From assembly GCA_903919075.1 (NCBI GenBank), contig CAIXGR010000007.1, positions 13,537 through 77,536 of the forward strand: a stretch of 64,000 nt of DNA, in the 5' to 3' direction. Below, piece by piece: positions 5,754-64,000 of this stretch (the first letter of the stretch is position 1; the number at the start of each line of letters is the position of its first letter). The notes under the pieces are model-generated. The model saw only the letters and a program-made list of their open reading frames with translations. It ran no database searches and was not told the DNA's origin. This DNA is from an uncultured Bacteroidota bacterium. Lineage in GTDB: Bacteria; Bacteroidota; Bacteroidia; Chitinophagales; LD1. The position numbers were made by a program, and so were the translations under genes.

Positions 5754-6309
5754 AGAAGTTAGATTTGGTTAAGAAATAGGTTATCGCACTTGCAAGGTAA
5801 AACAGTTTTCAGACATATTAGATCTATTAACAAATAAATTGTTGACAAATAGGTGGTTTTAAATGAAGGATGATAGTATTCGTTTTTTACTATCCTAAAC
5901 GGTTTTATTTTTTGGCATGTAATTTGATGGGTGATAATATTTTTTATTTTTCAAAAATCAATTATCTGTAAATCATGAACTTATGAAATAGTTTTGTTTT
6001 GTATATAATTCCATTAAATCTTTGATTGATTGGTATTTGTGTAAAAGAATTTACTTCTTGTTAATTTATTAGGGTAGAATAATATGTGCATAATTATAAA
6101 GAGCGCGAGTAACTACGTATCGGTTCTGAATATATTATAAGAAGAGAAGTAATAGATATCTTCCAACACAAGTTATAGCTAACTCAATTCGGTTATTATC
6201 AAAAAAACAATTTTTATCTCTAATGAATAAATATTATTTTTGTAGTATTGATTTAATTATTAACCGATAAGCGCAATTACCGTGCAAATAAGAAAAGTAA
6301 GCGCCAGAT

Positions 6310-6392
6310 ATGGTTGACAATGGTTGACACTTTTAAAGCTATAAATATTGATTATCAATGGTTCCGTTTTTAAGGTGTCAACTGTCAACCAT
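6310..6392 (-). repeat. Composite palindromic intergenic element, copy A core (inverted relative to copy C)
   Basis: The core reads ATGGTTGACAATGGTTGACAC (6310-6330), then 16 nt, ATTGATTATCAAT (6347-6359), 14 nt, and GGTGTCAACTGTCAACCAT (6374-6392). Its reverse complement aligns to 60480-60562 without indels (69/83 by hand). Confidence 0.85.
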
Positions 6393-6502
6393 GTTTCTGA
6401 TATGGTTTCTAACTTTAATAAACCTTTGGGACGAATGGATTTTTTAAGGCGTAATCAAAATCTTTTTTGCATGTTTGCCGAAGTAATGAAACCAATTTTT
6501 AG

Positions 6503-9563: not shown

Positions 9564-9901
9564 CGCAAGCCAGGCGCATTAATACAAATTGCATAAATTT
9601 ATCTTGTATTTCCTGCTTTATATCAACTAGTTATAGTGTTTTATTTAAGTCTAGTTCAACAAATCCAGTATATATTAAGAAATCATTGCGTGGGTATAAG
9701 TATACTTCTGCAGGTAGTTTAAAATATGCACAAAAATGCTATGTGTAAGTGAAAATGTGAGTTTTTAGAGGACACCTATAATCTTTTTGTTTCTATAAAC
9801 AAACAAATTTTAGCAATGAAATGTGCATAACATATTTCAACAAACATTCAGATTTAATAATTTTGATTACTATCTTTCGCTCATTAAAAACCAAAATTAT
9901 T

Positions 9902-10234
9902 ATGGCAACTAAAAAAGCAACAGCTAAAAAAGCAACAGCAAAAAAGGCACCAGCTAAAAAAGCCGCGAAGCCTGCAACAAAAAGAAAACCTAACGCAGCC
10001 TTCATGAAACCGATGAACATCGGCGCTGCATTACAGCCTATCGTAGGCAGCAAACCTCTTCCACGTACTGAGGTAACCAAGAAAGTTTGGGAATACATTA
10101 AGAAGAACAAACTTCAAGATGCAAAAGAAAGACGTAACATTAATGGTGATGCTAATCTTCAAAAAGTTTTCGGTGGCAAAAAAACCGTAAGCATGTTTGA
10201 AATGGCTAAGCACATCAACAACAATCTTTCTTAG
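9902..10234 (+). CDS. SWIB/MDM2 domain protein with Lys/Ala-rich histone-H1-like N-terminal tail
   Basis: The start is set at the ATG at 9902 (MATKKATAKKATAKKAPAKKAAKPATKRKP). The C-terminal core PLPRTEVTKKVWEYIKKNKLQD...NGDANLQKVFGGKKTVSMFEMAKHI is a SWIB/MDM2 signature. Confidence 0.85.
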   Translation: MATKKATAKKATAKKAPAKKAAKPATKRKPNAAFMKPMNIGAALQPIVGSKPLPRTEVTKKVWEYIKKNKLQDAKERRNINGDANLQKVFGGKKTVSMFEMAKHINNNLS

Positions 10235-16282: not shown

Positions 16283-17440
16283 ATGAAGAAGTATCCAGTT
16301 GTTTTATTATCGGGAATTGCTGTGGCTGCTTTAATCTTCAATTCCTGTAATAAGCAAACGGCACTAAAGCCATTAACGCCTAACCTGCCCTCTCAAAAAT
16401 ATGACTACGAGTCTGTTATGAGTAATTCGGTTTTGCAGGCTTCTGGTAGCAATGTTCCGTTTAATAATATGGTTAGCAATGCTGGTGCTACTTTGGGCAG
16501 AGTGCTTTTTTATGATCCGCGGCTTTCAATAAATAACTCTGTATCATGTGGTAATTGCCATAAGCAGCAGTATGGTTTTGCCGATAATACTGCACTGAGT
16601 ATTGGTTACAAAGGCCAAAAAGGTACACGCAATGCATTAGCGCTTATTAACTCTTCTACTAAAGCAAGTTTTTTCTGGGATGGGAGAGCGTCAACACTAG
16701 AAGAGCAGGCGCTTATGCCGGTTGTTAACCATGCTGAAATGGGGATGGAAAGATTAGATGTGTTGACAAAAAAACTAGCCGTAATAAGTTATTACCCACA
16801 ATTATTTGAAGATGCATTTGGCAGTGCAGAAATAACTGAGCAAGAAATTTCTTATGCAATTGCACAGTTTGTGCGTTCAATAGTAAGCACAAATAGCAAG
16901 TTCGATGTAAACTCTCAAAATTTTACACCTCAGGAGCGCAGAGGTATGGAGTTATTTATAGATAAATTTCAATGCGCTAATTGCCATAGAGGCGAAAACT
17001 TTGGCGGAGCACCATTGGCTGATACTTATTTTAATGAAGGAGCACCTTCGGGAGTTAGCATTCAAAATATTTCGAATATTGGTTTGGATGTTCAATATGC
17101 CGATCGTGGCGTGGGCTCATTGCTTAACAACTCTAAGTTAAATGGCGATTTCGTAATACCTTCTCTGCGCAATGTTGCGCTTACTGCACCATATATGCAT
17201 GACGGCCGTTTTGCAACCCTTGAGGAAGCTGTAGACCATTACAGCACTGGCATTTTGCCAAATGCTAATCTTGATCCGTTCTTGTTACAACCAAATTTCT
17301 TCTTTAATCCATCTCTTCCTGCGCAGCCGGTAAAAATGAATATGACTGATGAAGAAAAGCAATCGCTGGTAGCTTTTTTGCAAACACTTACTGATAATAC
17401 ATTAGCTACAAATCCAAAGTATTCTAATCCATTTAAATAA
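16283..17440 (+). CDS. Di-haem cytochrome c peroxidase (CCP/MauG family), lipoprotein
   Basis: The start is moved to ATG 16283 to remove the overlap with the upstream gene. It has a lipobox (LIFNSCNK), two CXXCH motifs (CGNCH, CANCH) and the conserved PSLRNVALTAPYMHDG. Confidence 0.88.
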   Translation: MKKYPVVLLSGIAVAALIFNSCNKQTALKPLTPNLPSQKYDYESVMSNSVLQASGSNVPFNNMVSNAGATLGRVLFYDPRLSINNSVSCGNCHKQQYGFADNTALSIGYKGQKGTRNALALINSSTKASFFWDGRASTLEEQALMPVVNHAEMGMERLDVLTKKLAVISYYPQLFEDAFGSAEITEQEISYAIAQFVRSIVSTNSKFDVNSQNFTPQERRGMELFIDKFQCANCHRGENFGGAPLADTYFNEGAPSGVSIQNISNIGLDVQYADRGVGSLLNNSKLNGDFVIPSLRNVALTAPYMHDGRFATLEEAVDHYSTGILPNANLDPFLLQPNFFFNPSLPAQPVKMNMTDEEKQSLVAFLQTLTDNTLATNPKYSNPFK

Positions 17441-33947: not shown

Positions 33948-34145
33948 TTACCAACTGGCAGTTTCCCAAGTGCCGCCTGCCTGCGCACAACCGTTTTCAA
34001 GCAAATTTAATTGAGCCGAGTTATAGTCTTTAGCACAGTATTGGTAAGTGCTTGAGCCCGGGTTTACGCAATTGTAACATTTTTTGCACGATGATGCAGT
34101 TATTATAAAGCCCGTAGCTAAAAAAGCCGCCAGAAGAAATTTCAT
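33948..34145 (-). CDS. Small Cys-rich lipoprotein (65 aa)
   Basis: The start is set at the internal Met (MKFLLAAFLATGFIITASSC, lipobox). The mature part of about 45 aa has 5 further Cys residues (CKKCYNC..C..C). Confidence 0.45.
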   Translation of the reverse strand: MKFLLAAFLATGFIITASSCKKCYNCVNPGSSTYQYCAKDYNSAQLNLLENGCAQAGGTWETASW

Positions 34146-34196
34146 GTAATAATCTTGAAAGCCAAAAATACAATTTAACCCGAAATACATAAATAG

Positions 34197-34272
34197 GGTG
34201 TTAACACTTTTAAAGTTAAGCTATTAATAATCAATATTTTACTTAAAAACAGTGTTAACACCTGTGAACACC
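34197..34272 (+). repeat. Composite palindromic intergenic element, copy B core (variant arms)
   Basis: The core reads GGTGTTAACAC (34197-34207), 15 nt, ATTAATAATCAAT (34223-34235), 16 nt, then GTGTTAACACCTGTGAACACC (34252-34272). The 15/13/16 spacing is the same as in copy C. Confidence 0.7.
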
Positions 34273-34371
34273 TTTTGTTTCAATTTTAATAAAACCACCT
34301 TTTTAGGCTATCCGAAATACCGGCATCTACAATCTAAATTTAGTTCGTCCGTCATCAGTCAAATATTTGGT

Positions 34372-34379
34372 TACTTTTG
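34372..34379 (+). promoter_or_regulatory. Candidate -7 promoter box (TAnnTTTG) for yidC
   Basis: TACTTTTG lies 44 nt upstream of the ATG at 34423. This is a motif match only. Confidence 0.3.
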
Positions 34380-34422
34380 CCCGCTCAAAAGTTGAACAAG
34401 AATTGCAGTTGCAACTAATCCC

Positions 34423-58336: not shown

Positions 58337-59698
58337 ATGAAATACTATAACAATATTGTAGAAACGATAGGAAGAACCCCACTGGTAAAACTTAACCGGA
58401 TTACGAAGGATATACCTGGCCTGTTTCTTGCCAAGGTGGAATATTTTAATCCGGGTAACTCTATTAAAGATAGAATAGGGATTAAAATGGTAGAAGATGC
58501 CGAAAAGTCTGGCAAACTTAAACCCGGTGGAACCATTATTGAATGTACATCGGGCAACACAGGTATGGGCCTGGCATTAGCAGCTGTAACCCGCGGTTAC
58601 AAATGTATTTTTACTACTACCGATAAACAGTCAAAGCAAAAGCTGGATATACTACGTGCATTAGGTGCCGAAGTAATTGTATGTCCTACCAATGTCGAAC
58701 CGGAAGACCCACGATCATACTATTCAATAGCTAAGCGTTTAGCAAATGAAATTCCTAACTCCATTCACATGAACCAGTACGATAACCTAAGCAATCGTGC
58801 TGCGCATTATGAAAGTACCGGCCCCGAAATTTGGGAACAGACTGAAGGTAAAGTAACCCACTACGTTACAACTATAGGCACCGGTGGCACTGTAATGGGT
58901 GTGGCTATGTATTTAAAAGAGAAGAATCCTAAAATACAGGTTTATGGTATTGATGTTTACGGCTCATTGCTCAAAAAATTTCATGATACCGGTGAGCTAG
59001 ATACTAAAGAAGTATACCCATATGTAACCGAAGGCATAGGAGAAGATTTTGTGCCGCAGAATTACGACATGAAATACATTGACCACATTGAACAGGTTAC
59101 TGATAAAGATGGAGCACTAATGGCCCGTCGCTTAGCTAAAGAAGAAGGACTGTTTTGTGGTTACAGCGCCGGCACAGTAATGCAGGGCTTATTGCAAATA
59201 AAAGATAAGTTTAAAAAAGATGATGTAGTTGTTATTATTCTACACGATCACGGTAGCCGCTACTTAGCCAAAATTTATAATGATGATTGGATGCGCGAAC
59301 GTGGTTTTTTAGTGGGCGAAGTAGTAACAGCAAAAACTATTATTGAACGCAAACAAATTCGCGAATTGGTAGCTGCTAATCCTAAAGAAAGTGTTGCCTC
59401 TGTATTCAAAAAAATGAAGGAACTTCACATTACCCAGTTACCGGTAATGGAAGGAGAGAAGAACACCGGTAGTATTACAGAGCATAAAATTTTGCAATTG
59501 CTGATTGATAACCCCAACCACCGCGATGATGAAGTAAGCAAAATTATGGGTAAGCCTTTCCCTTTTGTTGACCTTAATGCTACCGCTACCGATATTTCTA
59601 AGCATATTTCTAAAGACAATACAGCTGTATTAGTAAAAGCAAATTCAGGCGCGTTTCATATTATTACCGAGTTTGATTTGATTGAGGCGATGGCGTAA
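58337..59698 (+). CDS. Cystathionine beta-synthase-like PLP enzyme (CysK/CBS fold plus tandem CBS domains)
   Basis: The PLP lysine region is NPGNSIKDR, with TSGNTG and a G-rich loop GTGGT. The C-terminal roughly 120 aa form a CBS pair. Confidence 0.85.
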   Translation: MKYYNNIVETIGRTPLVKLNRITKDIPGLFLAKVEYFNPGNSIKDRIGIKMVEDAEKSGKLKPGGTIIECTSGNTGMGLALAAVTRGYKCIFTTTDKQSKQKLDILRALGAEVIVCPTNVEPEDPRSYYSIAKRLANEIPNSIHMNQYDNLSNRAAHYESTGPEIWEQTEGKVTHYVTTIGTGGTVMGVAMYLKEKNPKIQVYGIDVYGSLLKKFHDTGELDTKEVYPYVTEGIGEDFVPQNYDMKYIDHIEQVTDKDGALMARRLAKEEGLFCGYSAGTVMQGLLQIKDKFKKDDVVVIILHDHGSRYLAKIYNDDWMRERGFLVGEVVTAKTIIERKQIRELVAANPKESVASVFKKMKELHITQLPVMEGEKNTGSITEHKILQLLIDNPNHRDDEVSKIMGKPFPFVDLNATATDISKHISKDNTAVLVKANSGAFHIITEFDLIEAMA

Positions 59699-59737
59699 AA
59701 ATGATGTCGCCAAAGTTGTTTAACCGAACTCAGTTTT

Positions 59738-60328
59738 TTACCTGTCGATCCATCTTAGCACATTGCTCGATGGCCGTCTTTTCTTTTTCCGTTCAACATA
59801 TTCTTTTATTTTCTCTGCATCCTTAGCATTTGGTTGTAGTTTTAAATATTCTTCATAGCATTCAAACATCCTCTCGGTCTCAGCGTATGTGAGCCCGTCT
59901 TTTTTTAATAAGTTTGAATAACATGTGCCAATAAACCAATTGGCGCTATAATATTGTCCACTTTCTTTGTTAAGCAGTGTTAGCGCTTTTTCGAACCTTG
60001 AAATTGCCTGTTTATCTTGCTCAGCATAAAAGTTACCAATTCCACTATACCAAATGGCGGCTACATCAATCGAGTCTATAGCTAATACTTCAACAAAAAT
60101 TTTTTCAGCGTCTGAAAATCTTTTTTGTTTAACTAGAGATAAACCCAGTTGGCATTGATATATTAAATTAGTCGGATTCGCTTTTATGCCATCACTAAAA
60201 GTTTGTTCGGCTTTATCAAACTCATTATTATTAAGGTAAGTATTCCCTTTTTCCAAATAGGTATCTTGCCCGAAAGCAATCGTAAAGTTTACAAGCGTTA
60301 GTAGTATTACAAATATTAGTTGTCTCAT
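59738..60328 (-). CDS. Secreted TPR-repeat protein
   Basis: Signal peptide (ILLTLVNFTIAFGQ) and 3-4 TPR-like repeats. Confidence 0.65.
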   Translation of the reverse strand: MRQLIFVILLTLVNFTIAFGQDTYLEKGNTYLNNNEFDKAEQTFSDGIKANPTNLIYQCQLGLSLVKQKRFSDAEKIFVEVLAIDSIDVAAIWYSGIGNFYAEQDKQAISRFEKALTLLNKESGQYYSANWFIGTCYSNLLKKDGLTYAETERMFECYEEYLKLQPNAKDAEKIKEYVERKKKRRPSSNVLRWIDR

Positions 60329-60479
60329 TTTTTTATTTGTCTTTAGTCAAACTAGAATAAACTTCCTTGCTTACGTCATCAGGTTTTTTGGGTAAAAAAT
60401 TGTCAATCCGGCCAACTGTCAACCCATCCTCATTTTCCATTCTCATAATAAATTAATTATCAATAATTTATAAAAAAAT

Positions 60480-60562
60480 ATGGTTGACAGTTGACACTCT
60501 AAAAATTGAGTCATTGATAATCAATATATTAATCAGTGAAAGTGTCAACCGTTGTCAACCAT
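60480..60562 (+). repeat. Composite palindromic intergenic element, copy C core
   Basis: The core reads ATGGTTGACAGTTGACAC (60480-97), 15 nt, ATTGATAATCAAT (60513-25), 16 nt, then GTGTCAACCGTTGTCAACCAT (60542-62). Confidence 0.85.
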
Positions 60563-60887
60563 AACTGGCTATGCGTTTTTATTTACTCTAAAATACTGCA
60601 TTACCGGTTGGCTATTAAATTCACCTTACAAAAATAAAATTTATTTTTTTGAGATAAAATTTATTATTTATATAATTAAGGATCTCAAGAGAAAGGCTAT
60701 GCCATCGCTCCACGCATCTAATTATCTGTATTCCCTTCTCTACACGAAGCGTGGAGAAGGGGTGAGTCACCGGGAGGTCGCAACTATAGCGCAACTTTAA
60801 CCGGTCCGCAAAGACTTACTAGGTTTGCTTATCCTCGTGCATTTAGCTATATTTACTATGCAAAATTTCAATGCATAAACCGGAATT

Positions 60888-61397
60888 ATGAAAACAAATC
60901 TATTAATAGTTTCATTAGTCATTCTTACTGGAGCCGTATATGCGCAAGGCACTCTTCAATTCAACCAGGTATTATTAATCAATTCAGCAACTCCACAGCA
61001 AGTTCCTAACGGAAAGGTATGGAAGGTAGAAAGCGCTTTGTTCTCGAATGAAACCTATGTAATCTACTCATCTTCACAAGGTGGAAGCTGCTCTTGTGGC
61101 CAGGGTAATGCGGCATATTTATATGCCTATGCTTCAATAGCTGCTTTAGCTACAGGCAACTTAACTATTAACGGCACCACATATAATTATACTTCTGGTG
61201 GCACTATGTGGCTGCCCGCCGGTACCTCTTTAGCTTCTGTAACAATTAGTACGCCCCCGCAGCAATCCACACCCGCCACCGGATGTTATGACAACTACTA
61301 TATCAGCGGTGTTTATCAAGGCTGCGGTCCTTATACTCCCCCAACAGCAACAATTACCAGTATAGTAAGCGTAATTGAGTTTAATATCGTTCCGTAA
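60888..61397 (+). CDS. Hypothetical secreted protein
   Basis: Signal peptide (LLIVSLVILTGAVYAQ). S/T/G/Y-rich. No recognisable motif. Confidence 0.5.
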   Translation: MKTNLLIVSLVILTGAVYAQGTLQFNQVLLINSATPQQVPNGKVWKVESALFSNETYVIYSSSQGGSCSCGQGNAAYLYAYASIAALATGNLTINGTTYNYTSGGTMWLPAGTSLASVTISTPPQQSTPATGCYDNYYISGVYQGCGPYTPPTATITSIVSVIEFNIVP

Positions 61398-61634
61398 TTT
61401 TCCTAGTAGTTTATTGGTTTAATAATGCATTGGCTCTAACCTGAACCCACAGATTCCATAAGGTTATTCACACCTTACGTTTTGCCCACATGTTCCGTAA
61501 GTGCTCTCTTTATCCACGTAATCCACTGTCAACCAGCCCTCAGCTATTAAAGTGGACAGTCGCTCATTTTTACTGTTTCTATGTTAATAACGTTGTTGAT
61601 AAAGCAGGTATTTTTGTGGATAAAATATAGAAAT

Positions 61635-62012
61635 ATGAAAACAGTATTAAAAATAAGTGCTTGCGTTTTGTTTACCGCCTTCGGTTTCTCAAATTCACAG
61701 GCACAAGCTTTAGCAAGTCTTTCATCCGAAGTAACAGTGCCTAGTAAGCCTGCCGCTAATACCGAAATGACTATTATTTTAAAAAACAGTGCTGAAAAGC
61801 CCGTTATTATTTTTGCCGGCCCCAAAGAAGGAATCAGGGACCCCAAAGTAAGAACAGTAGGTGGTTTAAGCAAAAACACGCTTTACTTACAAAGTAATGA
61901 TGTTGTTTGCCTTATGGATCGCGAACCTAAGGCTATGGCCTGCACAGTTATAAAACCCGGCATTAGCTCGGTTGAGGTAAATGTTTCAGCCACCACTATT
62001 TCCAGTAAATAG
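61635..62012 (+). CDS. Hypothetical secreted protein
   Basis: The start is set at the internal Met with a signal peptide (MKTVLKISACVLFTAFGFSNSQAQA). 125 aa. Confidence 0.5.
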   Translation: MKTVLKISACVLFTAFGFSNSQAQALASLSSEVTVPSKPAANTEMTIILKNSAEKPVIIFAGPKEGIRDPKVRTVGGLSKNTLYLQSNDVVCLMDREPKAMACTVIKPGISSVEVNVSATTISSK

Positions 62013-62040
62013 CTTAACAAAATACTTGTCGTTTTAAAAC

Positions 62041-62075
62041 AGCCACTGCATACAGCAGTGGCTCTTCTGTTTTAT
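62041..62075 (+). terminator. Putative rho-independent terminator
   Basis: AGCCACTGC ATACA GCAGTGGCT followed by CTTCTGTTTTATC. Confidence 0.55.
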
Positions 62076-62099
62076 CTTCGTGCATTTTAAATGCGCTAC

Positions 62100-64000
62100 A
62101 TGAAATATGCTTCCTTGTTTGCTCTGGTTTTCACCATCTGTTTTGTGCGTTGGTTATCTCAGGTACATTACAAACCTCTGAATGGTTTTGGCAAAGAATC
62201 CCTGTACGAAAGTCCCGATAATCTTAATGGTGCTGCAGCCTATGAATATTACAGGCAAAGGAATCCAGCCACTGGAGAAATCCCCGTCAATATTCGTAAA
62301 AACGAATTAGCCTTTGCCGCTACTTTGCCAAAATATAATGAAGCTGAGCGAAGCATACAATGGCAAAACCGGGGCCCCTATAATTTAGGGGGTAGAACAA
62401 GGGCGCTTGCTTTAGATGTAACTAACGAGAATATTATTTTGGCAGGCCAGGTAACCGGAGGCATGTGGCGGAGTGATGATGGTGGTGCGCACTTTACTCA
62501 AACTACTCAACCCCAGCAATTGCATTCCAGCACTTGCATAGCTCAGGATAAGCGAGTTGTGCATACCAATGTGTGGTACTATGGCACCGGCGAGCAATAT
62601 GGGGTGGTAAATGCAGCGGGGTTCTCATCTCAATTTGCAGGCGATGGTATTTTTAAATCAACCGATGGTGGACATACATGGGCGCAGCTTCCCTCAACTG
62701 TTACTCCTGATGTTCCCAACCCATTATATCAGGCGAGAAGCTTCAACTTTGTATGGCAAATGGTAACCGACTCTACCGATGCTAACCATGATGTAGTGTA
62801 TGCTGCAGTTGTAAACGGTATATGGCGCAGCGCCGACGGTGGTAATTCATGGGCACCTGTATTAGGATTAGATACTGCGGCAAGTTCTGGTATTTCTTTA
62901 TACAGCGATATAGCAATAACATCTACCGGTGTTTTATATGCCACAATTTCAAGCGAAACGCCAAGCAAAGGAATTTACCGCAGCACAGATGGAATAAACT
63001 GGACAAAAATAACACCGCCTTCTTTTCCAACTTTCTATAATAGAATTGAAATTGGAATTGCACCAAGCGACGAGTCACAGCTATACATTATTGCAGAAAC
63101 ACCTAGCTATGGGCCTACACATCATACCCTTTGGCATTACAAATATTTATCAGGTGATGGCTCAGGTGCCGGTGGCCAATGGAGCAACCGCAGCCCTAAC
63201 ATTCCTGATGATCATTGCCTCGGGTATTTTAGTTTCGATTTCCGTAAATATAATTCTCAAAATTCATACGATATGTTTATTGCAGTTCATCCTAAAGATA
63301 CCAATGTGGTTTTTTTGGGTGGAACAGACCTGTATCGTTCCTGGAACGGCTTCACTACTAACTATTACGATTGGATTGGCGGTTATCAATGCGACTCATC
63401 GCACCTGTCAGATTATGTTTACCCCAATCACCATCCCGATCAGCACCGGCTTATATTTTCCCCCTCCAATCCGGCACTCGCTTATTCAGCTACCGATGGG
63501 GGAATTATGAAAACATATAGCACTTTGTCTGATGTGGTCACTTGGCAGCCTTTGAATAATAATTATAACACCGGCCAATTTTATACTTGTGCCATTGAAC
63601 CGGGTAATACCAATAGCCAGGTAATAGTAGGGGGCCTGCAGGATAACGGCACTTATTTTACCGGTGCTGTAGATTATACAGCTCCGTGGACACGGGTTTT
63701 GTACGGAGATGGAACCTATTGCGCTATTACACATAACCGTACCAACTATTATTTAAGTTGGGATGAGGGACGGGTATATAAAATGACAATTACCGATAGT
63801 GGAACGGTAACCGGTTTTTCGCGTATGGACCCCACGGGTGCCGGTAGTAACTATATTTTTGTTGCCCCTATGATTCTGGACCCGCTAAATGATACAATTA
63901 TGTATCTGGCTGTCGGAAAGTCAATCTGGCGAAATGATTCATTAACGGCTATTCCAATTACCGGTAATGAATACAGCACTATTTCGCAAGGTTGGAAAAT
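62100..64000 (+). CDS. BNR/Asp-box (sortilin/VPS10- or GH74-like) beta-propeller protein, 3'-truncated by the window edge
   Basis: This ORF is absent from the ORF track because no stop is reached. I translated 62100-64000 codon by codon and found no stop. It has an N-terminal hydrophobic signal (MKYASLFALVFTICF) and Asp-boxes WRSDDGGAHF, FKSTDGGHTW, WRSADGGNSW and YRSTDGINW. Confidence 0.85.
   Translation, partial: MKYASLFALVFTICFVRWLSQVHYKPLNGFGKESLYESPDNLNGAAAYEYYRQRNPATGEIPVNIRKNELAFAATLPKYNEAERSIQWQNRGPYNLGGRTRALALDVTNENIILAGQVTGGMWRSDDGGAHFTQTTQPQQLHSSTCIAQDKRVVHTNVWYYGTGEQYGVVNAAGFSSQFAGDGIFKSTDGGHTWAQLPSTVTPDVPNPLYQARSFNFVWQMVTDSTDANHDVVYAAVVNGIWRSADGGNSWAPVLGLDTAASSGISLYSDIAITSTGVLYATISSETPSKGIYRSTDGINWTKITPPSFPTFYNRIEIGIAPSDESQLYIIAETPSYGPTHHTLWHYKYLSGDGSGAGGQWSNRSPNIPDDHCLGYFSFDFRKYNSQNSYDMFIAVHPKDTNVVFLGGTDLYRSWNGFTTNYYDWIGGYQCDSSHLSDYVYPNHHPDQHRLIFSPSNPALAYSATDGGIMKTYSTLSDVVTWQPLNNNYNTGQFYTCAIEPGNTNSQVIVGGLQDNGTYFTGAVDYTAPWTRVLYGDGTYCAITHNRTNYYLSWDEGRVYKMTITDSGTVTGFSRMDPTGAGSNYIFVAPMILDPLNDTIMYLAVGKSIWRNDSLTAIPITGNEYSTISQGWK

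What the first reader, a model, noticed from the sequence alone, without database searches (positions are those of the whole stretch)
34197..34345. Copy B upstream of yidC: both arms changed together while the geometry is preserved
Seen directly: the core 34197-34272 keeps the arm / 15 nt / 13-nt palindrome / 16 nt / arm layout of copy C. The central palindrome differs at one base (ATTAATAATCAAT). The arm heptads are GTTAACA/TGTTAAC and TGTGAAC instead of GTTGACA/TGTCAAC. The left arm is GGTGTTAACAC. The right arm GTGTTAACACC TGTGAACACC again has 10-bp phasing. Both arms carry the substitution, so the inverted symmetry is kept. A change of this kind favours a hairpin or cruciform, or co-evolution with a paralogous binding protein, over simple sequence drift. 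The polar flank is also recognisable after an insertion of about 30 nt: GGCTATCCG (34306-14) and AAATACCGGCAT (34315-26) correspond to GGCTATGCG (60567-75) and AAATACTGCAT (60591-601) in copy C. The element sits between a divergent small lipoprotein gene and the essential insertase gene yidC, 151 nt from its ATG.
Basis: seen in the sequence. Interest (0 to 1): 0.6.

Follow-up and report, generated by a model that had tools for sequence, protein, structure and literature searches.

The report
Dispersed origin-like palindromic intergenic repeat
Copy B is a real but diverged member of a three-copy intergenic repeat found only in one uncultured Chitinophagales bacterium; it is built like the protein-binding core of a mobile-element replication origin and is not a conserved control element of yidC.

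Summary
The core at 34197-34272 is real. The window holds exactly three sites with the layout GTTRACAC-15 nt-ATTRATAATCAAT-16 nt-GTGTYAAC; shuffled sequence gives none. Copies A (6310-6392, reversed) and C (60480-60562) match at 51 of 52 arm and centre positions, while their spacers are only 58% identical and carry no indels. So arm sequence, centre sequence and spacing are all under constraint.

Copy B has its own 11-bp inverted repeat. Its arm unit is TGTKAACACC, against TGTCAACCNT in A and C. The claimed "polar flank" of B is not significant (P=0.89).

About 139 kb from eight related genomes contains no copy, including the yidC, accC and TPR-gene sites. The yidC promoter is conserved there without the element, so this is a lineage-specific dispersed repeat and not a yidC regulator.

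Both arm types recur as tandem repeat clusters in mobile-element DNA. Clusters carrying GTTGACA, GTGAACACC or a third heptad lie directly after primase/helicase genes, and two of them contain the same 13-bp centre.

Best reading (0.45): a DNA-level protein-binding module of the replication-origin type, with B a second binding-specificity class. Main rival (0.28): a hairpin-forming REPIN/MITE-like element. Function in the chromosome is unknown.

The parts
34197..34207 (+). Copy B left arm GGTGTTAACAC: one 10-mer unit, the reverse complement of TGTTAACACC, plus C
34208..34222 (+). Copy B left spacer. 15 nt, AT-rich, sequence not conserved but length conserved in all three copies
34223..34235 (.). 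Copy B centre ATTAATAATCAAT, one change from the 13-bp palindrome ATTGATAATCAAT
34236..34251 (+). Copy B right spacer, 16 nt. The whole region between the arms is 86% A+T
34252..34272 (+). Copy B right arm: G + TGTTAACACC + TGTGAACACC, two 10-bp tandem units. The first unit is complementary to the left arm; the second has no partner
6310..6392 (-). Copy A core in the reverse orientation. Arms are ATGGTTGACA(GTTGACAC) and GTGTCAACCAT-TGTCAACCAT; centre at 6347-6359
6195..6309 (-). AT-rich flank of copy A, homologous to the flank of copy C. Contains a TATTTTTG -7-like box at 6235-6242 that reads into the core
60480..60562 (+). Copy C core; centre at 60513-60525
60563..60676 (+). AT-rich flank of copy C, homologous to the flank of copy A
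60401..60479 (.). Degenerate extra unit C': TGTCAAT..TGTCAACC-27 nt-ATTAATTATCAAT-18 nt. It shares the left arm of copy C as its second arm
34346..34383 (+). yidC promoter-proximal block conserved in relatives that lack the element. The -7 box TACTTTTG is at 34372-34379
34163..34170 (-). Predicted -7 box TATTTTTG of the divergent lipoprotein gene (33948-34145). With the yidC box it places copy B between two outward-reading promoters
   Evidence: inference

Best explanation
Copy B is one of three copies, plus one degenerate copy, of a lineage-specific dispersed intergenic repeat. Its selected parts work at the DNA level as a composite protein-binding site. Two inverted sets of tandem 7-10-bp repeats ('iterons') flank a 44-nt AT-rich spacer, and a 13-bp palindrome sits in that spacer at fixed distance from both arms. 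This is the architecture of the iteron-type origins that lie just downstream of primase/helicase genes in phages, satellites and integrated elements.

On this reading a sequence-specific protein binds the arm repeats. It is most likely a winged-helix initiator-like protein of a resident mobile element. The 10-bp phasing puts successive units on one face of the helix. The AT-rich middle with its palindrome is either bound by a second factor or is the part that melts or extrudes.

Copies A and C carry the iteron class TGTCAACC. Copy B carries a second class, TGTKAACACC. Both arms of B therefore differ together because both must fit the same, different, protein.

Shown: the conservation pattern, the absence from relatives, and the recurrence of both arm classes as repeat clusters, several next to replication genes. 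Inferred: that a protein binds, which protein it is, and what the chromosomal copies do. They could be orphan origins, titration sites or relics. The element has no dedicated conserved role in yidC expression.
For: 1. Constraint on sequence and spacing. A and C match at 29/29 core arm and centre positions and at 51/52 with the outer arms included. Their spacers match at only 18/31, with no indels in any copy, whereas the A/C flank alignment is gapped.
2. The arms are direct tandem repeats: 7-bp period on the left and 10-bp on the right in A and C, and one unit on the left against two on the right in B.
3. The region between the arms is 77-86% A+T and the A/C flank 74-77%, against 67% for all intergenic DNA in the window.
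4. L011, a Chitinophagales MAG, has the same centre ATTGATAATCAAT, 15 nt after tandem GTGAAC..ACAC repeats. It lies inside a 300-nt region with 8 of the locus's 10 GTGAACAC copies (0.15 expected), including B's exact unit TGTGAACACC. The region is directly downstream of an AAA_25 / phrog_239 primase-helicase gene, in a locus that also has Cro/CI-like and excisionase-like genes.
5. Viral contigs L110, L127 and L137 show TTACCACACACCACAC-8 nt-ATTGATAATCAAT-21 nt-GTGTGGTAgGTTAGTGGTAcGTTGTGGTA, with further repeats nearby. In L110 this lies directly downstream of a phrog_1313/15962 helicase-primase gene and near a DnaB-like helicase gene.
6. L055 has ten or more GTTGACA/TGTCAAC heptads followed by AT-rich DNA, directly after a phrog_256/1313 helicase-primase gene.
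7. L142 and L199 carry tandem TGTGAACACC, four copies in L142.
8. [quoted passage not shown]
9. Copy B lies between two predicted outward-reading promoters, so it is probably not transcribed.
Against: - No primase, helicase, initiator, transposase, integrase or transcription-factor gene lies in the 64-kb window. All neighbours are housekeeping genes.
- Three origin-like modules in 64 kb of chromosome have no known rationale.
- The links to L055 and L142 were found by searching for the arm sequences themselves, so only the extra repeats and, for L055, the gene context count as independent evidence. L142's neighbouring genes have no informative annotation.
- The links to L011 and L110 required the exact centre, and the number of candidate regions in the databases is unknown, so chance cannot be fully excluded.
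- L125 has the centre with flanking repeats but is not next to a replication gene.
- In B. finegoldii the same centre occurs in only one of about ten copies of a hairpin family. The centre is therefore not diagnostic on its own.
- The spacing in L110 (8/21 nt) differs from 15/16.
- The mirrored arm changes in B are equally predicted by base pairing.
Confidence: 0.45

Rival explanations
1. A hairpin or cruciform-forming selfish repeat of the REPIN/BIME or palindromic MITE type. The two arms pair in single-stranded DNA or RNA, and a structure-specific transposase copies or maintains the element. Arm changes are compensatory because pairing is selected.
For: - The arms are complementary, with folding z-scores of -6 to -7 for A and C and -3.1 to -3.6 for B.
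- Three pairs are changed on both sides in B.
- The family is lineage-specific and absent from orthologous sites.
- C' and C share an arm in alternating orientation, as in BIMEs.
- Other Bacteroidota carry palindromic families with many compensatory arm changes: the hopbrook MAG L012/15/21/22, B. finegoldii, and a 155-nt palindromic repeat at contig ends in a Dysgonomonadaceae MAG.
- Bacteroidota are rich in genus-specific MITEs (PMC11602168).
Against: - Spacers are not complementary, yet their lengths are fixed.
- The centre is 13 conserved bases that a hairpin does not need.
- A and C arms show no compensatory change at all, despite 42% spacer divergence.
- The second right-hand unit of B is unpaired.
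- The A/C homology runs 115-125 nt past one arm only, so the arms are not the element's termini.
- No target-site duplication is visible.
- No RAYT or transposase gene is in the window.
- All three copies sit between divergent genes, whereas REP-like hairpins elsewhere sit mostly after genes.
Confidence: 0.28
2. An operator or enhancer-like array for a chromosomal transcription factor that controls the divergent promoters on either side: lipoprotein/yidC, susC-like/accC and TPR/169-aa gene.
For: - All three copies lie in divergent intergenic regions. These make up 11 of 49 junctions, about 0.03 by chance after weighting by length (my count).
- B's left arm abuts the predicted lipoprotein promoter.
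- Fixed spacing and 10-bp phasing suit a bound protein complex.
Against: - The flanking genes share no function.
- Relatives keep the yidC and accC promoter blocks without the element, so it is not part of their ancestral control.
- A regulon with two different arm classes in one genome is unusual.
- No regulator gene is nearby.
Confidence: 0.12
3. A mobile cassette that carries an outward promoter. In A and C the conserved flank block holds a Bacteroidota -7 box (TATTTTTG) that reads through the palindrome toward accC or the TPR gene. B would be a truncated relic.
For: The best-conserved flank block, TACAAAAATAAnATTTATT, contains the reverse complement of TAnnTTTG at homologous positions in both copies (6235-6242 + and 60629-60636 -).
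Against: - TAnnTTTG is not enriched in the window (77 found, 99 expected).
- No -33 TTTG sits at the proper distance.
- accC already has its own conserved promoter.
- B has no such box.
Confidence: 0.08

Closest known systems
Iteron-type origins of pri-rep replicons (SaPI/PICI origins; phage P4 ori and crr)
   Same: Two sets of short tandem repeats flank an AT-rich stretch. Repeat sequence is specific to each replicon. Both arm classes of the window recur as repeat clusters, and clusters carrying GTTGACA, GTGAACACC or a third heptad lie directly 3' of primase/helicase genes (PMC6092414).
   Different: There is no replication gene next to any window copy. Three small copies (80-200 nt) are scattered among housekeeping genes. 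Replication activity is untested.
E. coli BIME-1 / RIP elements (two inverted REPs around an IHF site) and REPINs
   Same: Dispersed, intergenic and lineage-specific. Inverted arms surround a central protein-site-like motif; the centre contains WATCAANNNNTTR-like strings in B and C, an IHF consensus recalled from memory. Arms alternate in orientation in the composite C'+C.
   Different: The arms of A and C are tandem direct repeats, not hairpins in themselves. There is no GTAG/CGTC tag and no RAYT gene seen. The copies lie in promoter-side rather than 3'-side intergenic regions.
Palindromic MITEs such as Neisseria Correia elements and the Bacteroidota MITEs of PMC11602168
   Same: Size, inverted terminal-like arms, presence/absence between related genomes, and a possible outward promoter.
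   Different: No target-site duplication. The homology between copies extends beyond one arm. The interior has diverged while arms and centre are frozen.
Integron attC sites
   Same: Two 7-bp boxes per arm. Unequal box spacing on the two arms gives unpaired bases and a polarity. The middle is variable. GTT...AAC lies at the box ends.
   Different: The boxes GTTGACA/TGTCAAC do not fit GTTRRRY/RYYYAAC. There is no integrase and no cassette array. The centre is conserved, which attC centres are not.

Membership tests
Iteron-type replication origin (pri-rep-ori module) | Two or more sets of short direct repeats | tested here: met
   In A and C there are 2+2 heptads, at 7-bp and 10-bp periods. In B there are 1+2 units. 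C' adds two more heptads.
Iteron-type replication origin (pri-rep-ori module) | AT-rich stretch between or beside the repeat sets | tested here: met
   The region between the arms is 77-86% A+T and the A/C flank 74-77%, against 67% for all intergenic DNA.
Iteron-type replication origin (pri-rep-ori module) | Cognate initiator or helicase-primase gene adjacent | tested here: not met
   A Pfam scan of the proteins tested across the window found no replication initiator, primase or SF3/AAA_25 helicase. The rest of the genome could not be reached.
Iteron-type replication origin (pri-rep-ori module) | Supports initiator-dependent replication | not testable with these tools
   This needs a plasmid maintenance assay or marker-frequency analysis.
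REP / REPIN (RAYT-associated) | Each unit is itself a 20-40-bp imperfect palindrome carrying a GTAG or CGTC tag | tested here: not met
   The A and C arms ATGGTTGACAGTTGACAC are not self-complementary. No GTAG/CGTC tag sits at the arm ends. Only B's GTGTTAACAC is a 10-bp palindrome.
REP / REPIN (RAYT-associated) | A RAYT (Y1 transposase) gene in the genome, flanked by REPs | not testable with these tools
   None is present in the window. The species is absent from the genome and metagenome collections that could be scanned by DNA pattern.
MITE | Terminal inverted repeats at the ends of the unit | tested here: inconclusive
   Inverted arms exist. But A/C homology continues 115-125 nt beyond the right arm only, so the arms are not both termini.
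MITE | Target-site duplication | tested here: not met
   No shared direct repeat flanks the arms. TA is found on both sides only in C (reading).
MITE | Insertion polymorphism at orthologous sites | tested here: met
   Absent upstream of yidC (L030, L032, L034), accC (L036-L038) and the TPR gene (L108, L109) in relatives. There are no centre motifs in about 139 kb. Same-species contigs are identical.
Integron attC | R''/L''...L'/R' boxes fitting RYYYAAC / GTTRRRY, with an integron integrase | tested here: not met
   GTTGACA and TGTCAAC each fail the consensus at two positions. No tyrosine recombinase is in the window.
Any Rfam RNA family | Match to a curated covariance model | tested here: not met
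   No hit at gathering score in the window. Only sub-threshold miRNA-hairpin look-alikes appear in the relaxed searches.

The most novel reading that the evidence does not exclude
The chromosome of this Chitinophagales bacterium carries scattered orphan copies of mobile-element origin cores in at least two iteron specificity classes. They act in trans on the initiators of phages or satellites. They could be decoys that titrate an invader's initiator, which would be a non-coding defence. Or they could be sites where a resident element starts replication of chromosomal DNA in place.
Probability: 0.1. Interest if true: 0.75.

Novelty: new variant of a known kind. Interest (0 to 1): 0.4.

Why it matters
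If the arms are initiator-binding repeats, this would be an example of origin-type modules spread through housekeeping intergenic DNA without their replication genes. Such sites could titrate or recruit the replication proteins of phages and satellites. The organism belongs to a phylum whose non-coding repeats are almost unstudied.

If it is instead a hairpin repeat, it adds an unusual type to the REP/MITE catalogue: tandem-repeat arms, a frozen centre and fixed spacing.

In both cases it removes a false lead. The element is not part of conserved yidC control. It also shows that a mirrored change in two arms is not by itself evidence for base pairing.

Tried and rejected
- Rfam, at gathering and relaxed thresholds: nothing except spurious miRNA-precursor look-alikes.
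- Literature search for the centre and for the Bacteroides arm sequences: nothing relevant.
- Metagenome pattern scan with free arm positions: 3 chance hits, none with the 15/16 layout or matching arms, so no further copies for a covariation test.
- Genome pattern scan: 24 hits, about half of them chance. The window's species is not among them.
- BLAST of the A/C unit against plasmids and phages: nothing useful.
- 'Phylum-wide conserved centre': downgraded. In B. finegoldii the loops of the hairpin family vary and only one copy has the centre. For perfect palindromes only six positions are free, so several hits may be chance or produced by the search itself.
- Homology of B's flank to C's flank: rejected.
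- Coding potential of the A/C flank: rejected. The frames are broken by stops and indels (reading).
- Fur-box, FNR-box, Pho-box, pC194-type nick-site (CTTGATA) and HincII-site (GTYRAC) resemblances were considered from memory only. None could be tested and none is relied on.
- oriC: rejected. There are three copies, no DnaA boxes and no GC-skew turn at 34 kb.
- The 16688-16769 heptad pair lies inside a coding gene and is chance.
- The genes around L142 gave no informative annotation.

Full report
**What is there.** The sequence at 34197-34272 reads GGTGTTAACAC / 15 nt / ATTAATAATCAAT / 16 nt / GTGTTAACACC TGTGAACACC. The degenerate pattern GTTRACAC-N15-ATTRATAATCAAT-N16-GTGTYAAC finds exactly three sites in the window: 6323-6382 on the minus strand (copy A), 34200-34259 (copy B) and 60490-60549 (copy C). 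None of 100 shuffles gave a match, even with three mismatches allowed.

**Orientation.** In A (read in reverse) and C, the left arm is ATGGTTGACA-GTTGACAC with a 7-bp period. The right arm is G-TGTCAACCNT-TGTCAACCAT with a 10-bp period. This asymmetry gives the element a direction.

**A fourth, degenerate unit.** It lies just left of C: TGTCAAT..TGTCAACC, 27 nt, ATTAATTATCAAT, 18 nt, and then the left arm of C.

**What is under constraint.**
- A and C are homologous over about 200 nt (6195-6396 and 60476-60676).
- Within the 60-nt core they match at 8/8, 13/13 and 8/8 positions of left arm, centre and right arm. The two spacers match at only 9/15 and 9/16.
- With the outer arm units included, the constrained parts match at 51 of 52 positions. 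At 58% spacer identity, 29 of 29 has a probability of about 1e-7.
- No copy has an indel in either spacer, whereas the A/C flank alignment needs several gaps.

Arm sequence, centre sequence and their spacing are therefore all maintained.

**The B flank claim fails.** B's flank aligns to C's flank no better than shuffled sequence (P=0.89). The A and C flanks align to each other at P<0.0005.

**The mirrored change in B.**
- B's arms form an 11-bp perfect inverted repeat of their own.
- On a gapless three-sequence alignment, 3 of 11 pairs are changed on both sides relative to A and C, and sliding the partner destroys the pairing.
- Only 21 of 500 shuffles reach this value. With three sequences that is suggestive, not proof.
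- Folding gives z = -3.1 to -3.6 for B and -6 to -7 for A and C, on either strand and as RNA or DNA. Any inverted repeat would give such values.
- Read as 10-mers, the A/C unit is TGTCAACCNT and the B unit is TGTKAACACC. B's left arm is the exact reverse complement of its own unit.

**Context and comparison.**
- The window comes from an uncultured Chitinophagales bacterium. It has SusC/SusD and T9SS proteins, and the nearest YidC is 76% identical.
- Same-species metagenome contigs are identical across B and C.
- In relatives, the 38-nt block TCGTCCGTCATCAGTCAAATATTTrkTTACTTTTGCsCGC upstream of yidC is conserved (window 34346-34383, with a Bacteroidota -7 box TACTTTTG at 34372-34379). The element is absent.
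- The same holds upstream of accC: the promoter block is conserved and there is no element. The TPR-gene orthologue loci also lack the element; no conserved promoter block was identified there.
- In about 139 kb from eight related genomes there is no centre motif, against three in 64 kb here.
- The three flanking gene sets share no function, and gene order differs from the relatives at all three sites.
- The element is thus a lineage-specific dispersed repeat and not a yidC regulator.
- The window holds no transposase, integrase, RAYT, initiator or regulator gene.
- Rfam has nothing.

**Is B transcribed?** The small divergent ORF most likely starts at 34145, giving a lipoprotein signal peptide. 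It has a -7 box at 34163-34170 on the minus strand. Together with the conserved yidC -7 box, this places B between two outward-reading promoters. It is probably untranscribed, which points to a DNA-level role. This is an inference from predicted promoters.

**Related sequences elsewhere: hairpin families.** A genome-wide pattern scan that required only ACAC, the centre and GTGT returned 24 loci, about half at chance level. Several were Bacteroidota palindromic repeats. Follow-up showed that in B. finegoldii the hairpin family TCACCACAGATTACACGGATT... has variable loops, and only one copy carries the centre. I therefore do not claim a phylum-wide conserved centre. Those families do show many compensatory arm changes and sit mostly after genes. 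They are the model for the rival, hairpin-type reading.

**Related sequences elsewhere: replication modules.** Three other hits point in a different direction.
- L011, a Chitinophagales MAG. The centre lies 15 nt after tandem GTGAAC..ACAC repeats, inside a 300-nt region with 8 of the locus's 10 GTGAACAC copies (0.15 expected). B's exact unit TGTGAACACC is among them. The region is directly downstream of an AAA_25 / phrog_239 primase-helicase gene, in a locus that also has Cro/CI-like and excisionase-like genes.
- L110, L127 and L137, viral contigs. These were found by requiring only ACAC-N15-centre. The centre is flanked by TTACCAC repeats at 7-bp period on the left and GTGGTA repeats at 10-11-bp period on the right, with more repeats nearby. 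In L110 the module lies directly downstream of a helicase-primase gene and near a DnaB-like helicase gene.
- L055, a viral contig. Ten or more GTTGACA/TGTCAAC heptads followed by AT-rich DNA lie directly after a helicase-primase gene of the same PHROG families.

In addition, L142 carries four tandem TGTGAACACC units inside a repeat-rich region; L199, cut at a contig end, shows the same array.

[quoted passage not shown] From memory, not verified here, the P4 iteron is TGTTCACC, the complement of GGTGAACA. Contigs L143, L147 and L158 show such repeats.

**Weighing the readings.** The protein-binding, origin-type reading accounts for:
- the tandem direct repeats in the arms;
- the unpaired extra unit of B;
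- the frozen centre and fixed spacing;
- the AT-rich middle (77-86% A+T against 67% intergenic);
- the joint change of both arms in B, as a switch of binding class;
- the occurrence of both classes as repeat clusters, several next to replication genes.

Its weak points:
- no replication gene lies near any window copy;
- three such modules in chromosomal housekeeping DNA have no known purpose;
- part of the comparative evidence was found by searching for the motifs themselves.

I give this reading 0.45. The hairpin-forming REPIN/MITE-like reading gets 0.28, a chromosomal transcription-factor array 0.12, and an outward-promoter cassette 0.08. The mode of dispersal is unknown under every reading: there is no target duplication and no transposase.

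**Verdict.** The link to yidC is coincidental. The interpretation 'not drift' is right. The finding is a new variant of known kinds of element, of moderate interest. It would become more interesting if the chromosomal copies prove to interact with mobile-element initiators.

Noticed in passing
window 9821-10234 (+), repeats at 9906-9966: A SWIB-domain protein whose N-terminal part is encoded by 15-nt tandem repeats. These give a Lys/Ala-rich tail that resembles histone H1.
   Followed up: no
window 6235-6242 (+) and 60629-60636 (-): The best-conserved block of the A/C flank contains a Bacteroidota -7 box TATTTTTG that reads into the palindromic core, toward accC or the TPR gene. It could be an outward promoter. 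It is absent from B.
   Followed up: partly
window 5754-6502, 34146-34422, 60329-60887: All three copies sit where gene order differs from related genomes: peptidase M1 lies upstream of yidC in relatives, PorP/OmpA upstream of accC, and other genes beside the TPR gene. The repeat may mark, or promote, rearrangement breakpoints.
   Followed up: partly
L041 versus window 59182: A same-species metagenome contig is 99.9% identical to window 59182-63954 but carries different DNA to the left. The breakpoint is inside the 453-aa PALP/CBS gene. This is either a strain rearrangement or a chimeric assembly.
   Followed up: no
window 33948-34190 (-): The 80-aa ORF most likely starts at Met16 (34145), giving a 65-aa Cys-rich lipoprotein with signal peptide MKFLLAAFLATGFIITASSC.
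   Followed up: partly
window 60709-60757: An inverted repeat CTCCACGC...GCGTGGAG lies in the long leader region upstream of the 169-aa secreted-protein gene. There is no Rfam match.
   Followed up: no
L101-L107 (NZ_OY7259xx, B. finegoldii): Records filed as plasmids in PLSDB carry dnaB, pheT, the thi operon and similar genes, so they are chromosome pieces. They hold a hairpin repeat family, TCACCACAGATTACACGGATTnACACAGAT...loop...complement, with variable loops and clear compensatory arm changes, mostly just after genes.
   Followed up: partly
L016 1-165; ends of L017 and L024: A Dysgonomonadaceae MAG has an approximately 155-nt near-perfect palindromic repeat with outer ends GCTGTATCAAAAG...CTTTTGATACAGC and ATTGATWATCAAT at its exact centre. 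It sits at three contig ends, which indicates a high-copy element that breaks the assembly.
   Followed up: partly
L110 598-1551 and L125 8856-9815: Two viral contigs that carry the centre motif also encode a reverse transcriptase of PHROG family 1423.
   Followed up: no
L063 1740-1890: A GC-rich viral contig has three tandem GTTGACA repeats, about 55 nt, then three (G)TCAACC repeats. This lies between an Xre-type repressor gene and a gene whose translation reads like a ParB-like/methyltransferase protein (read by eye, no profile search). The layout is the same in an unrelated, high-GC replicon.
   Followed up: no
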